Assembly: GCF_041248615.1 (NCBI RefSeq)
Contig: NZ_CP158426.1
Source: Escherichia coli
GTDB lineage: Bacteria; Pseudomonadota; Gammaproteobacteria; Enterobacterales; Enterobacteriaceae
Strand: one strand, 5' to 3'
DNA: 64,000 nt
Position numbers: made by a program. Of the stretch, positions 13,901-16,900 are shown piece after piece (the stretch's first letter is position 1; every line of letters begins with the position of its first letter).

Positions 13901-16900
13901 CTTTGTGATTGGTCCGTTATTTTCTGGCTGATATTTGAGCGTATAACAGTGTTATACAGTGGTATACTGTATGGATATTACTCACTGATATGGTCTTTGC
14001 AATGAGCAAATCTAATCTGATCGCGTTCCGCATCCCATCTGAATTGCAGGATGAGTTTAATCGGTCTGTTCTCGCTTCTGGAGGGGATAAAACCTCCTGG
14101 CTTGTTGATGCGATTCGCATGAAGCTGGGACAGCCGGAAAAGTCTATTGATTCACGAATGCTTGGGCTGGTGGAGCGCATGGAAAAAGCCGCAGCATCGC
14201 TTATTGCCGGAAAGCCGAACATCCCACCAAAGCCATATAACGAAACGGCAGTTATAAAGATCATTGCCGATACCATCCGACAGGGATTTGATAATGGGCG
14301 TGTGATAGCGGAACGGCTCAATGAAGCAGGCTACCAAACAAAAGCTGGTAAAGCGTGGGATAAAGACATTTACAGCGCGTGGAAGCGTCAGGGTAACAAT
14401 ATTAAAAGAATCAATACGCTGCTTCAGTAATTGATCAGTGTATAAATGATATTTATCGCTCAATCGCTCCCTTTCCGCCCTTCAGCTACAGGGTCGTTGT
14501 CGGCGATAACAAAACCTAAGTCCTGAGAGAATCTCTCTCGTGGGAATCCTTTAGCAGGTAAACCCATTGAATCATATCCACATCCGGGAACATTTGGTTT
14601 AGAGTCAATAAGGTCTGCAATTTGCCGAAGCCATGTTGATCCCGGACCAAGTCGTTTAACTAAGTACCAGATAATACAGATCGCGCTAAAAATCCTCTCG
14701 CAACTCTCTGGATGGAGATTAAGTCCGTCAAAGTATTCATTATCCGGTACTGGAACTCGGGGATGCTTTCTATTCCATATTCTGGAATGGTGAGCGCAAC
14801 GATTCCTTATGAGATTAAGGCACTTCAACCATTTTGCAAATGTCTGCTTATTATCAATGCCAAAACGACGTATAATTTTCCCCTGCATATGACCATTAAG
14901 CATCGCATAATATTTAGACATCTGACCAAAATCCCAGGTCTCCACCGCCACCCAAAATGGAATCTCCTTGCCTTGGCTTCGATGCCATTCAATACAGTCA
15001 TCTCTGCTTTCGTCTAATTTTACTTTTTGCTTATACACCCAATGCTCGAAGGCAGATGAGAATTTTGGATTAATGTATTTTGATGACATGTAGGCAAGTG
15101 GATCATTGCGACCAACCTCATGCGCGATGACTGAACGAACATGAATCTCTATTCTTTCGATAGCATCAATCATCAAAAGACGCAGTTTTTTGTCAAAAAG
15201 ATATAGATCGTACGTCTTCTCGAAACTGGTACCAGCAAGAAATCGGTCTGTTCTGTACGAAAGACCTTTATCTGTTGTCGCAATAATTCTTGATGGGTAC
15301 CAAAAACCTGACAATCGATAATATCCAACCTGCGACAGCTTACGTATCGCACGATTTCGATCATTGATAATCATGCCACGTTCAAGTAGCAATCCTAGCA
15401 ATTCGTGATAGTCCTTATGAGGCTTTGCGGCAATCATAGTGGCGAAACAAAAGATAATAAAAGGCCCGACCGTGAAACTCACATGCCTGAAATCGGCGGC
15501 GGAGAAACAGAGGATCGGGCTCGGTTGCCTGTAACTCTATCCGAAGTTATCCACATGTCAATGCACAGTTACTTAGGAAACTAACATAGATACTATCATC
15601 ACTCACGAAAAACCACTATATGTGGTTTTTATTCATATTGTTATCCACTACAGGCTGTGTCAATAACTTTTACCTATTAATTGGGTAATTTCTACATTTT
15701 CCTATGCTGGCTAGTTTCTCTACTGAAAAGTTGGCACTCCTTAATCGCTTTTCGGTTAATACTATCGGTCTTCATATTGCCAGCAGCATACGCCATCCGA
15801 TAATTTCTATGCTACGCGCGCGTACTTGTCGCAAAATATCAGGCAAAGGCCAGATTCAGAACGTCGTGATAACCACCAGCACAACATGAGATGTCATGTA
15901 ACGCGATTTATCACACCAGATACATGTGATTGGTGTACCCGCATAAAACATCGTCATAGCGCGTCCTGTGCGCATATACGCCGATAATCAACACATCACC
16001 ACCACTCTGTCTTATGTAGAGAACAGTTTTATGGTGCTCCCCGCCATCGTGTGCGTACTGGTCGGACGTAGTTGCAAAATTTTTTGCAACTGATACCCCT
16101 CGCGCGCGTACTGGTCACGAAATTGGTGTTTTGCTGTGGCAGTGATATCAGAAAAATCTTCCTGTTTCACATAAAGCGGATATGCGCGTACTGTAACGGC
16201 CCCATCAACTGGGAGCGGATTTGAAATCCCGACCCAAGCTATGTACCAAATGCCATGTCTTGGATATATGATGATTGCCATTCTAAACAACGCTAAAGGG
16301 AGGGTTGGTGTGAATCAATTGAAGCGATTGGTTGTCTCCGGTTTATTATTTGCTTCTTTTGGAGCGAACGCTGAATGCTGGATTATTGGTGATCTGAAAG
16401 GACAAGAAGCCTCAAGTTCAGATGGGTATAACTATAAGTTATCATCTATACCAGATACCTTTCATTTGGTAATAAGTAAAGAGAAGGCGGATCTTATCTT
16501 GGCAAAAGATGGTATAGGTGGAGGTATTGATTATTACCCGCTATCTCCGAATGCCATGATGGGAAGAAGCTATCGAGATGGTCAACTGACGCTTGTCACA
16601 TGGGCAATCTCAAATGACGGAAAAGTGATCCATACACGAACAATTAGTCGATCTGATATAGGCTCATTTACAGGCTCATTTGTCGGCAATGTTAAAGGCA
16701 AGTGTTAATGTTCATAACTATTTGAAAAAAATACTAATTACTATTATAACCAACCATCCATGGCCATCTGTTATTGAGCTTCCTTTTGCGATGCTTGTGC
16801 TGCTGTGGTCAGTGATTGTGTGACCGTACTGATCGCTCTGTCATATGCTGTGCTACCTTTTGGCGTATTTGCCAGACGTAACAAGGCATTTCGTATAACA

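What the first reader, a model, noticed from the sequence alone, without database searches (positions are those of the whole stretch)
14460..15482. Abi_2 (AbiD/AbiF-like) abortive-infection gene as island cargo
The 340-aa protein carries the recognisable Abi_2 family signature (YYRLSGFWYP and LIRNRCAHHSRIWNRK) and is encoded in an AT-rich block between the operon module and the left iteron cluster. It is a plausible anti-phage defence gene on a satellite-like island, consistent with defence hotspots in such elements. The upstream region holds an unusual repeat set and the neighbour is a small DNA-binding protein.
Basis: partly seen in the sequence, partly recalled or inferred. Interest (0 to 1): 0.6.

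Follow-up and report, generated by a model that had tools for sequence, protein, structure and literature searches.

The report
AbiF toxin with RNA antitoxin
The flagged gene is a genuine AbiF-type (Abi_2/HEPN) abortive-infection gene carried as swappable cargo on an excising E. coli phage satellite, and it is preceded by a conserved structured RNA that is most likely its antitoxin, so it is a two-part system of a kind first described in 2025, not a lone gene.

Summary
The ORF at 14460-15482 (-) carries both quoted motifs and matches Pfam Abi_2 (E 2.8e-52), PADLOC AbiD (8e-58) and the solved PbAbiF-ncRNA complex 8VZ6 (sequence E 4e-36; AlphaFold model TM 0.75-0.82). The real start is the ATG at 15437 (325 aa, not 340).

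A structured RNA lies directly upstream at 15445-15532 (-). It has its own sigma-70 promoter, an 8-bp G+C-rich stem, a conserved CUCUG loop, a variable hairpin and a U-rich tail. It lies directly upstream of 72 of 80 relatives' genes from other species. Compensatory changes occur in 10 of 16 pairs. Rfam's abiF motif does not detect it but does detect both positive controls.

The host element is a 19.2-kb EcCIMP1-like satellite (PICI) at the 3' end of yicC. It is flanked by 21-bp repeats, and the same assembly also holds its excised circle. The Abi cassette (~14401-15744) fills a variable slot.

Best reading: a type III toxin-antitoxin-like HEPN RNase with an RNA antitoxin. Toxicity, RNA binding and phage defence are untested. 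It is a new member of a known kind; the RNA variant may be undescribed.

The parts
14460..15437 (-). abi gene, 325 aa. AbiF/AbiD-group (Pfam Abi_2) HEPN protein with RNRCAH motif R211-H216. RefSeq WP_021542399.1.
   Evidence: AlphaFold model pLDDT 89.8; its only significant PDB match is 8vz6_A, the PbAbiF dimer bound to ncRNA.
15445..15532 (-). Conserved structured non-coding RNA, the candidate antitoxin (AbiFr-like), ending 8 nt before the start codon.
   Evidence: Covariance model R1 scores 56.3 bits, E 2e-13, and this is the only hit in the 64-kb window. Alignment A3 and RNAalifold give 16 pairs, 10 with compensatory changes. Pair counts are 92.9% paired against 27-48% when slid.
15513..15520 (-). 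P1 helix, 5' arm GCCCGAUC.
   Evidence: Pairs with 15464-15471. Compensatory variants in other species include GCCUGAUC/GGUCAGGC and GCCUAGAC/GUCUAGGC.
15464..15471 (-). P1 helix, 3' arm GGUCGGGC.
15508..15512 (-). Nearly invariant CUCUG between P1 and P2 (family consensus CC[U/C]CUG): an unpaired CUC plus the first two P2-closing pairs. Candidate protein-contact or active-site-blocking element.
   Evidence: Columns 20, 21 and 24 are invariant and columns 23 and 25 nearly invariant in A3. CCUCU is also conserved in the Rfam abiF motif of PbAbiF. The role is inferred.
15445..15463 (-). U-rich tail CCUUUUAUUAUCUUUUGUUU after P1. Terminator/attenuator-like.
   Evidence: Family consensus GGGCCUUCUUGUUUCUGG. 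Analogous to the RCd22 terminator upstream of abiF in C. difficile (PMC12373285). Termination is not demonstrated.
15534..15561 (-). Sigma-70-type promoter TTGACA-16-TAGAGT driving the RNA and abi. Predicted TSS about 15527.
   Evidence: 10 of 12 matches. TTGAC lies at a fixed 34-36 nt upstream of the conserved CAAYNG in 52 of 55 loci from other species.
14401..15744 (.). Variable cargo cassette (promoter, RNA, abi) inside the island.
   Evidence: In Abi-less relatives (L088-L091), backbone homology stops at about 14400 and resumes at about 15745-15806.
12954..32199 (.). 19.2-kb EcCIMP1-like phage-inducible chromosomal island. Gene order: int, Ant, Ash, TOPRIM/DUF927 primase, P22-like gp14/gp7/gp20/gp16, PerC. 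Integrated at the 3' end of yicC.
   Evidence: attL 12954-12974 TTATTCAATATTCTGAATCTG and attR 32179-32199 TTATTCGATATTCTGGATCTG match at 19 of 21 positions and lie 19,225 bp apart. The circular junction is in record NZ_LT599831.1 of the same assembly.
13990..14430 (+). 146-aa backbone gene convergent with abi, possibly DNA-binding. Not a dedicated partner of abi.
   Evidence: Present in Abi-less islands L088 and L089. Also found next to abi in Raoultella and Providencia. Pfam hits are weak only.

Best explanation
The locus is a two-component AbiF-type system that works like a type III toxin-antitoxin module. One sigma-70 promoter (15561-15534) transcribes a roughly 80-90-nt structured leader RNA (15532-15445) and then the abi gene (15437-14460).

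The protein is a HEPN RNase of the AbiD/AbiF (Abi_2) group. By analogy with PbAbiF and AbiFCd it should form a homodimer with the RNRCAH residues at the dimer interface.

The RNA has an 8-bp G+C-rich stem (P1), a conserved CUCUG element, a variable hairpin (P2) and a U-rich tail. It is proposed to act in two ways:
(a) in cis, P1 plus the U-tail ends most transcripts before the toxin gene, which in E. coli also lacks a Shine-Dalgarno sequence;
(b) in trans, one RNA binds each protein monomer and blocks the active site.

When phage infection disturbs transcription or RNA stability, free AbiF would cut cellular and phage RNA and stop growth, aborting the infection.

The cassette is interchangeable cargo in a hotspot of an EcCIMP1-like phage satellite, which would spread it and benefit from it.

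Shown here: family membership, catalytic motif, fold, existence and conservation of the RNA structure, promoter conservation, cargo status, and island mobility (circular junction).

Inferred: termination, RNA-protein binding, toxicity, trigger, and phage protection.
For: Protein:
- Abi_2 E 2.8e-52 and PADLOC AbiD 8.4e-58.
- 8vz6_A E 4e-36 over residues 4-301. R211/H216 align with PbAbiF R210/H215. The R210A+H215A double mutant of PbAbiF is inactive (PMC12373285, citing Zilberzwige-Tal 2025).
- R211, N212, H216 and H217 are invariant in 25 homologues.
- The AlphaFold model (pLDDT 89.8) matches only 8vz6_A: E 1.4e-15, TM 0.75/0.82.

RNA:
- The upstream 95 nt are more conserved than the coding region across genera whose proteins are 65-68% identical.
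- nhmmer finds the element only directly upstream and on the same strand.
- RNAalifold gives 16 pairs, 10 with double compensatory changes.
- 92.9% of cells are paired, against 77.9% in shuffles and 27-48% when slid. The covariation score is 0.499 against 0.213, with 0 of 500 shuffles reaching it.
- About 73 G-U/U-G cells against about 5 A-C cells in paired columns (tables) place the structure on the sense-strand RNA, not in DNA.
- Model R1 gives 73 hits in 553 kb. Of these, 72 lie immediately 5' of an abi gene, including 17 loci not used to build the model.
- It also hits the second E. coli allele at 65.9 bits.
- The promoter sits at a fixed distance in 52 of 55 loci.

Precedent: AbiF homologues from a Prevotellaceae bacterium and from C. 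difficile are toxins neutralised by an upstream ncRNA (PMC12373285, PMC13064643, PMC12737573). In lactococcal AbiD/F the upstream region is better conserved than the genes and is needed to clone them (PMC13064643).

Cargo and satellite.
Against: - No expression, toxicity, binding or phage data exist for this locus or its clade.
- The RNA is not recognised by Rfam abiF RF03085. My model scores only 10.3 bits on the PbAbiF RNA. Homology of the two RNAs is therefore not shown, and their architecture differs: CCUCU sits in a hairpin loop in PbAbiFr but between the two helices here.
- Single-sequence folding of the E. coli leader is not exceptional: z -1.2, and -0.26 for the longer stretch. The structure rests on comparative evidence.
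- P1 encloses a 41-nt insert, which is unusual for an intrinsic terminator.
- Anti-phage activity of AbiF could not be shown even for the C. difficile system (PMC12373285).
Confidence: 0.68

Rival explanations
1. The module serves mainly as an addiction or stabilisation device for the satellite (post-segregational killing that keeps the PICI in the lineage) and not as phage defence.
For: It sits on an element that excises: the circular form is present in the same assembly. Toxin-antitoxin modules on mobile elements commonly act this way. The C. difficile authors raise prophage maintenance as an alternative for AbiFCd (PMC12373285).
Against: - Most related islands do without it: about 70 of 615 genomes carry this allele. 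EcCIMP1 itself lacks it.
- The slot also holds other defence-like cargo: ImmA/IrrE with CapP/RmrA-like hits.
- Lactococcal AbiD, AbiD1 and AbiF were found by their phage-resistance phenotype (PMC13064643).
- The two roles are not exclusive.
Confidence: 0.15
2. The upstream element is only a cis-acting leader (a transcription attenuator or riboswitch-like sensor controlling abi) and does not bind or neutralise the protein. On this reading the system is a single-gene Abi under tight transcriptional control.
For: A G+C-rich stem is followed directly by a U-rich tail just before the start codon. RCd22 lowers abiF expression 17-fold in cis (PMC12373285). The RNA is not the Rfam abiF motif.
Against: - The CUCUG, CAAYCG and tail sequences are conserved far beyond what a terminator needs.
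- Both characterised AbiF systems use the upstream RNA as a direct protein-binding antitoxin in trans (PMC12373285, PMC12737573).
- An orphan copy of the RNA without an abi gene exists in L076. This fits a trans role.
Confidence: 0.12
3. The cassette is a satellite weapon aimed at the helper or at competing phages for the satellite's own benefit, for example by biasing packaging, and does not protect the host population by abortive infection.
For: It lies next to the P22-like ejection-protein module of a PICI whose relative EcCIMP1 gives superinfection immunity against its helper (PMC11773190).
Against: The same RNA-abi cassette occurs in many non-satellite contexts across Gamma-, Beta- and Deltaproteobacteria and Cyanobium. 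Its function is therefore not tied to this satellite.
Confidence: 0.04
4. The gene is an inactive remnant.
For: There is no Shine-Dalgarno sequence before ATG 15437. A truncated copy exists in another species (L076).
Against: The ORF is intact. All family-invariant residues are present. The model is confident. The allele is at least 99% identical in about 70 genomes, with promoter and RNA intact.
Confidence: 0.01

Closest known systems
PbAbiF-AbiFr (Prevotellaceae bacterium AbiF with its ncRNA; PDB 8VZ6; Zilberzwige-Tal et al., Cell 2025, as described in PMC12737573 and PMC12373285)
   Same: - Same protein family and fold: E 4e-36, TM 0.75-0.82.
- Same catalytic R/H positions.
- In both, an RNA lies directly upstream on the same strand, ending about 8-20 nt before the ATG. 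It has an outer stem CCCG../..CGGG, a U-rich tail and a conserved CCUCU (compared with 37).
   Different: - About 28-35% protein identity.
- The PbAbiF RNA is the 37-nt Rfam abiF hairpin (58.5 bits). The E. coli RNA is not detected by that model, and the reverse search also fails.
- The E. coli RNA has an extra helix, and CUCUG sits between the helices instead of in the apical loop.
- A second invariant RxxxxH (R101-H106) occurs in this clade; PbAbiF has N at the H position.
AbiFCd-RCd22 of C. difficile prophage phi027/phiC2 (PMC12373285)
   Same: A promoter, then a structured RNA with a terminator, then read-through into abiF. The catalytic motifs are alike: RNQCAH there, RNRCAH here. Both are carried on a mobile element of phage origin.
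   Different: - RCd22 has two Rfam abiF motifs plus a separate terminator. Here there is one composite structure whose outer stem may itself be the terminator.
- 29% protein identity.
- The location differs: inside a prophage lysis module there, in a PICI cargo slot here.
Lactococcal AbiD, AbiD1, AbiF (plasmid-borne Abi systems; PMC13064643)
   Same: Same Pfam family. PADLOC files the E. coli protein under AbiD. In both, the upstream region is conserved more strongly than the gene.
   Different: Distant sequences and Gram-positive plasmid context. Phage-resistance phenotypes exist there and not here.
ToxIN/AbiQ type III toxin-antitoxin systems
   Same: A protein RNase toxin is neutralised by a cis-encoded RNA, with a terminator between RNA and toxin gene and an abortive-infection outcome.
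   Different: The toxin fold is unrelated (ToxN/AbiQ is not HEPN). The ToxI antitoxin is an array of tandem repeats processed by the toxin. Here there is a single copy and no tandem repeats.
EcCIMP1, a PICI of E. coli MP1 with P22-like helper Kapi1 (PMC11773190)
   Same: Same backbone gene order, and one protein accession is identical (WP_001018524.1). The order is int, HTH, Ant, DUF4222, Ash, TOPRIM/DUF927 primase, DUF2824, ejection proteins, PerC.
   Different: - Integration site: tRNA-Thr near proA there, the 3' end of yicC here.
- The EcCIMP1 cargo slot holds only a small HTH gene and no Abi.

Membership tests
Pfam Abi_2 / AbiD-AbiF group (protein) | Significant full-length match to the Abi_2 profile. 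| tested here: met
   PF07751 E 2.8e-52, model 2-184/184. PADLOC AbiD 8.4e-58. PHROG 2158.
Pfam Abi_2 / AbiD-AbiF group (protein) | HEPN R-phi-xxx-H motif at the catalytic position. | tested here: met
   R211-N-R-C-A-H216 aligns with PbAbiF R210/H215. It is invariant in 25 homologues.
Pfam Abi_2 / AbiD-AbiF group (protein) | AbiF fold as in the solved structure. | tested here: met
   AlphaFold pLDDT 89.8, pTM 0.84. Foldseek's only significant PDB hit is 8vz6_A: E 1.4e-15, TM 0.75/0.82, rmsd 3.0 A.
Pfam Abi_2 / AbiD-AbiF group (protein) | Homodimer with a composite active site; RNase activity; toxicity. | not testable with these tools
   Needs biochemistry. Only a monomer was modelled.
AbiF-ncRNA type III toxin-antitoxin system | Conserved structured ncRNA encoded in cis, immediately upstream of the toxin gene on the same strand. 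| tested here: met
   72 of 80 loci have the element directly upstream. 10 of 16 pairs show compensatory changes.
AbiF-ncRNA type III toxin-antitoxin system | RNA made as an abundant short transcript (own promoter, termination or processing before the toxin gene). | tested here: inconclusive
   A conserved promoter at fixed distance and a U-rich tail after P1 are sequence features only. No transcript data.
AbiF-ncRNA type III toxin-antitoxin system | RNA binds the toxin and neutralises it. | not testable with these tools
   Requires co-expression and co-purification.
Rfam abiF RNA motif (RF03085) | Match to the covariance model at or above the gathering score of 37 bits. | tested here: not met
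   - No hit in the window at E<=10 or E<=1.
- None at gathering score in 20 relatives' loci.
- None at E<=5 in 8 more.
- Positive controls are detected: phiC2 37.6 bits, the PbAbiF locus 58.5 bits and a Prevotella locus 38.1 bits.
ToxIN-like type III toxin-antitoxin | Antitoxin is a tandem array of repeats. | tested here: not met
   There is a single R1 hit. There is no tandem repeat between 14460 and 16680.
PICI (EcCIMP1-like phage satellite) as host element | Backbone of int, regulators, primase/replication genes, without capsid, terminase, tail or lysis genes; syntenic with a characterised PICI. | tested here: met
PICI (EcCIMP1-like phage satellite) as host element | Site-specific integration with flanking repeats, and excision. 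| tested here: met
   21-bp repeats (19 of 21 identical) lie 19,225 bp apart. A 19,226-bp record of the same assembly carries the PerC-int junction.
PICI (EcCIMP1-like phage satellite) as host element | Induction and packaging by a helper phage. | not testable with these tools
   Shown for EcCIMP1 with Kapi1 (PMC11773190), not for this island.
Anti-phage defence system (functional sense) | Reduces phage plating or aborts infection. | not testable with these tools
   No data for this clade. Inferred from lactococcal AbiD/D1/F (PMC13064643).

The most novel reading that the evidence does not exclude
The leader RNA defines a previously undescribed structural class of AbiF-associated antitoxin RNA. 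It has two helices with a conserved CUCUG between them and a built-in terminator-like tail. It is widespread in Gamma-, Beta- and Deltaproteobacteria and Cyanobium. It is absent from Rfam 15 and is not interchangeable with the abiF motif of the solved PbAbiF complex. If so, E. coli offers a native, genetically tractable host in which the still-unknown trigger and phage range of AbiF systems can be worked out. The conserved promoter and 5' RNA segment also appear to act as a recombination anchor for swapping toxin alleles between satellites.
Probability: 0.35. Interest if true: 0.55.

Novelty: new member of a known kind. Interest (0 to 1): 0.4.

Why it matters
AbiF is the proposed ancestor of Cas13. 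How AbiF systems are triggered and which phages they stop is still open; the C. difficile study could not demonstrate defence.

This locus would make that question testable. It is a native E. coli version with a clearly delimited 1.3-kb cassette, a defined promoter, a testable RNA structure and known catalytic residues. It rides on a satellite whose relative has a known helper phage. Standard coliphage panels and genetics could be applied directly.

The case also shows a practical annotation trap. Gene callers extend the abi ORF through the RNA: 340 aa here, and 349 aa for the PbAbiF cluster representative. Defence-finding tools therefore report a single gene and miss the antitoxin.

Finally, the case adds one more documented cargo hotspot in a PICI family present in about 11% of complete E. 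coli genomes.

Tried and rejected
1. GTG 15482 as the start codon. Rejected because of the conserved N-terminus.

2. Rfam abiF as the identity of the upstream RNA. Not detected, although the controls work.

3. Weak Rfam hits. 'lactis-plasmid' (16.6 bits, E 8), isrK, HCV_SLVII and SNORA4 in 15400-16000, and MIR5998 on the iterons, are all far below gathering scores. I treated them as chance.

4. The hairpin at 15608-15630 and a second promoter-like site at 15644-15615 as part of the RNA. They lie inside the cassette but outside the conserved element and are not conserved in other genera.

5. DnaA boxes as regulators: TTATCCACA at 15548-15556 in the promoter spacer, and TTATCCACT at 15642-15650. 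They are not conserved in Raoultella, Providencia or the Aeromonadaceae locus. About 0.5 exact copies are expected by chance in the window (my own estimate).

6. The GCGCGTACTG repeats as part of the system. They are island backbone, present in Abi-less islands including EcCIMP1.

7. The 146-aa neighbour as a third component. It is present in islands without abi. NCBIfam and PADLOC give no hit, PHROGs gives one weak hit (phrog_30270, E 3e-4) and Pfam gives only weak hits.

8. An exact-k-mer search for att repeats found only a 12-mer, because the repeats are imperfect. This was resolved through the circular record.

9. The Cell 2025 paper itself could not be read. I could not check whether its own covariance models already cover this RNA.

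10. Plasmid and phage collections: no close relative of this allele.
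Full report
WHAT IS THERE

The window is part of the chromosome of E. coli NRZ14408 (NZ_LT599825.1). It matches:
- Pfam Abi_2 over the whole model, E 2.8e-52;
- the PADLOC AbiD model, 8.4e-58;
- PHROG 2158, 'abortive infection resistance protein'.

NCBIfam has no model for it. RefSeq calls it 'Abi family protein' and starts it at 15437. An alignment with 24 homologues from other genera shows that they all begin at or within a few residues of the MIAAKPHKEY N-terminus (A1). The protein is therefore 325 aa, and the GTG at 15482 is not the start.

THE PROTEIN

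Against the PDB the only real match is 8vz6_A, at E 4e-36 over residues 4-301. That entry is the cryo-EM structure of the Prevotellaceae AbiF dimer bound to its non-coding RNA (PMC12737573, PMC12373285). R211 and H216 of the E. coli protein align with PbAbiF R210 and H215. The double mutant of those PbAbiF residues is inactive (PMC12373285, citing Zilberzwige-Tal et al. 2025).

The motif RNRCAH fits the HEPN R-phi-xxx-H rule (PMC3710099, PMC12373285) and is invariant in the family alignment. An AlphaFold model built on that alignment is confident (pLDDT 89.8, pTM 0.84). Its only significant structural neighbour in the PDB is again 8vz6_A: E 1.4e-15, TM 0.75/0.82, rmsd 3.0 A. Membership of the AbiD/AbiF group is therefore established by profile, motif and fold.

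The literature says that AbiF works with an RNA encoded just upstream, which acts as antitoxin (PMC12373285, PMC13064643, PMC12737573). I therefore examined the upstream region.

On the minus strand there is a promoter-like site, TTGACA-16-TAGAGT, at 15561-15534. The sequence that follows is CAACCGA GCCCGAUC CUCUG ... CACG GUCGGGC CUUUUAUUAUCUUUUGUUU. It ends 8 nt before the ATG.

I fetched 80 loci that encode relatives, from one genome per species. In Raoultella, Providencia and an Aeromonadaceae MAG the proteins are 65-68% identical. The roughly 95 nt from the -35 box to the U-rich tail are far better conserved than that. A profile built from those four sequences found the element in 54 other loci. 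Every hit lay directly upstream of the gene on the same strand, even the weak ones.

An alignment of 38 distinct sequences (A3) gives an RNAalifold consensus of two helices:
- P1, 8 bp: GCCCGAUC/GGUCGGGC in E. coli;
- P2, variable in sequence and length.

Ten of the 16 pairs show compensatory double changes. Pair counting gives:
- 92.9% of cells paired, against 77.9% in shuffles and 27-48% when the 3' partners are slid;
- a covariation score of 0.499 against 0.213, with 0 of 500 shuffles reaching it.

The paired columns hold about 73 G-U/U-G cells and about 5 A-C cells (tables). This places the structure in the sense-strand RNA and rules out a DNA palindrome.

A covariance model of A3 (R1) found 73 matches in 553 kb searched on both strands:
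- one in the 64-kb window, at 15445-15532 (-), 56.3 bits;
- 71 directly 5' of the abi gene in 71 of the 80 fetched loci, 17 of which were not in the training set (Cyanobium, Burkholderiaceae and Desulfovibrio among them);
- one orphan copy in a Pseudomonas locus.

With filters off, a further locus from a gut phage contig scored 29.6 bits and the Pasteurellaceae and Neisseria loci scored 20-23 bits, all at the right place. The -35 TTGAC sits at a fixed 34-36 nt from the conserved CAAYNG in 52 of 55 loci.

RELATION TO THE KNOWN abiF RNA

Rfam's abiF motif (RF03085) is not found:
- in the window at E<=1 or E<=10;
- at gathering score in 20 relatives' loci;
- at E<=5 in eight more.

The tool does find it in two positive controls. 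One is phage phiC2, upstream of AbiFCd, at 37.6 bits. The other is the PbAbiF locus itself. I recovered that locus by searching with the 8VZ6 sequence (P0121, 100% identical; L085). The motif scores 58.5 bits at 1063-1099, about 19 nt before the ATG. Conversely, R1 scores only 10.3 bits there.

The two RNAs share four features: position, an outer stem CCCG../..CGGG, a U-rich tail, and a conserved CCUCU. They differ in architecture. In the PbAbiF RNA, CCUCU lies in the apical loop of a 37-nt hairpin. Here, CUCUG lies between the two helices. I therefore file the E. coli RNA as 'works like AbiFr' and not as a member of RF03085. I could not read the Cell paper. Another paper states that its authors released broader covariance models for AbiF RNAs (PMC12804078), so this variant may already be catalogued.

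THE CARRIER

The gene lies on a 19.2-kb island between dinD and yicC. The island's gene content is:
- integrase, HTH, AntA/B antirepressor, DUF4222 and Ash;
- a TOPRIM/DUF927 primase;
- P22-like gp14, gp7, gp20 and gp16 ejection proteins;
- a PerC-family regulator;
- no capsid, terminase, tail or lysis genes.

Its gene order matches that of EcCIMP1, and one protein accession is identical. EcCIMP1 is a PICI of E. coli MP1 that is induced and transduced by the P22-like phage Kapi1 (PMC11773190).

The same assembly contains a separate 19,226-bp record in which the PerC end is joined to the integrase end. Mapping the junction gives:
- attL at 12954-12974;
- attR at 32179-32199, which covers the last 21 nt of yicC;
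- 19 of 21 positions identical, 19,225 bp apart.

The island therefore excises, or at least its circular form was present in the sequenced DNA.

CARGO STATUS

Sequences related to the flanks occur in 615 of 5426 complete E. coli genomes. This Abi allele occurs in about 70 of them. Between the 146-aa backbone gene and the next backbone gene, related islands carry one of the following:
- a second Abi allele (51% identical protein, R1 hit 65.9 bits);
- an ImmA/IrrE peptidase with an unknown partner;
- a small hypothetical gene;
- a small HTH gene, as in EcCIMP1.

Backbone homology ends at about 14400 and resumes at about 15745-15806. The cassette is therefore about 14401-15744.

Between the two Abi alleles, homology resumes at 15508, inside the RNA. 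The promoter and the 5' part of the RNA are 97.6% identical, although the proteins are only 51% identical. This suggests allele exchange by recombination anchored in the conserved 5' segment.

The 146-aa neighbour is also backbone. It does accompany abi in Raoultella and Providencia.

MECHANISM AND CONFIDENCE

Best explanation (0.68): a type III toxin-antitoxin-like pair. The HEPN RNase AbiF is kept silent by its leader RNA in two ways. In cis, P1 plus the U-tail would end most transcripts, and there is no Shine-Dalgarno sequence in E. coli. In trans, the RNA would bind the protein. The RNase would be released when phage infection disturbs the RNA supply.

Shown: the family, motif, fold, RNA structure, promoter conservation, cargo status and mobility.

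Inferred: termination, binding, toxicity, trigger and protection.

Rivals are:
- a satellite-stabilising addiction module (0.15, not exclusive);
- a purely cis-acting leader (0.12);
- a satellite-versus-helper weapon (0.04);
- a dead gene (0.01).

NOVELTY AND SCORE

The gene is annotated and the system type has been known since 2025. As stated, the finding is a correct but ordinary call: a new member of a known kind. The added value is threefold:
- an RNA partner of a form that Rfam 15 does not hold;
- its wide distribution;
- an E. coli setting in which open questions about AbiF could be tested.

Interest 0.4.

Noticed in passing
window 12954-12974 and 32179-32199; L092 (NZ_LT599831.1) 5675-5695: The whole 19.2-kb island is also present in the same assembly as a separate 19,226-bp record ('phage_14408_2') with the PerC end joined to the integrase end. 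This gives the excised-circle junction and defines 21-bp imperfect att repeats at the 3' end of yicC.
   Followed up: yes
window 13767-13887 and 22056-22166: There are two mirror-image iteron clusters, each with GTTGGTTCA three times direct and three times inverted. One lies between PerC and the 146-aa gene. The other lies just 3' of the TOPRIM/DUF927 primase gene. They bracket the ejection-protein and cargo region. They may be origin or regulator sites, and a cluster is partly conserved in EcCIMP1.
   Followed up: partly
window 15818-16193: Five copies (at most 1 mismatch) of GCGCGTACTG lie within 376 bp, where about 4 are expected in the whole window on both strands. They sit in an unannotated backbone intergenic region upstream of the phrog_2651 gene. 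They are conserved in Abi-less islands and EcCIMP1. Function unknown.
   Followed up: partly
window 15548-15556 and 15642-15650: A perfect DnaA-box consensus, TTATCCACA, lies in the spacer of the RNA/abi promoter. A one-mismatch copy lies 94 nt further upstream. Neither is conserved in other genera.
   Followed up: partly
window 15508 (breakpoint); L084 5993-6800: The two E. coli Abi alleles are 51% identical at protein level. They share a 97.6% identical promoter, 5' RNA segment and upstream flank, and the homology breaks inside the RNA. This suggests cassette swapping by recombination at the conserved 5' end.
   Followed up: partly
L076 5271-5345: An orphan copy of the RNA element (61.2 bits) lies in a Pseudomonas fluorescens locus with no abi ORF after it, 2.6 kb downstream of an RNA-abi pair whose gene looks truncated.
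   Followed up: partly
window 15438-15482; L085 970-1117: Gene callers extend abi ORFs upstream through the non-coding RNA: 340 aa here, and 349 aa for the cluster representative of PbAbiF against 300 aa in the PDB chain. This hides the RNA from annotation.
   Followed up: yes
window 14460-15437 (residues 101-107): A second RxxxxH (R101-S-V-I-A-H106, followed by E107) is invariant in the 25-sequence alignment of this clade. PbAbiF has N at the H position. Significance unknown.
   Followed up: no
window 11908-12744: dinD, the chromosomal gene next to the island, matches PADLOC candidate-defence models PDC-S13 (7.5e-121) and a 'Type I specificity subunit' model over its first 267 positions.
   Followed up: no
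window 16771-21429: The satellite carries a complete P22-like gp14/gp7/gp20/gp16 ejection-protein module but no other virion genes, as does EcCIMP1. This implies it supplies its own ejection proteins to helper-built particles.
   Followed up: partly
window 45000-50000: A strongly AT-rich stretch (GC 0.30-0.35) lies well outside the island. It was not examined.
   Followed up: no
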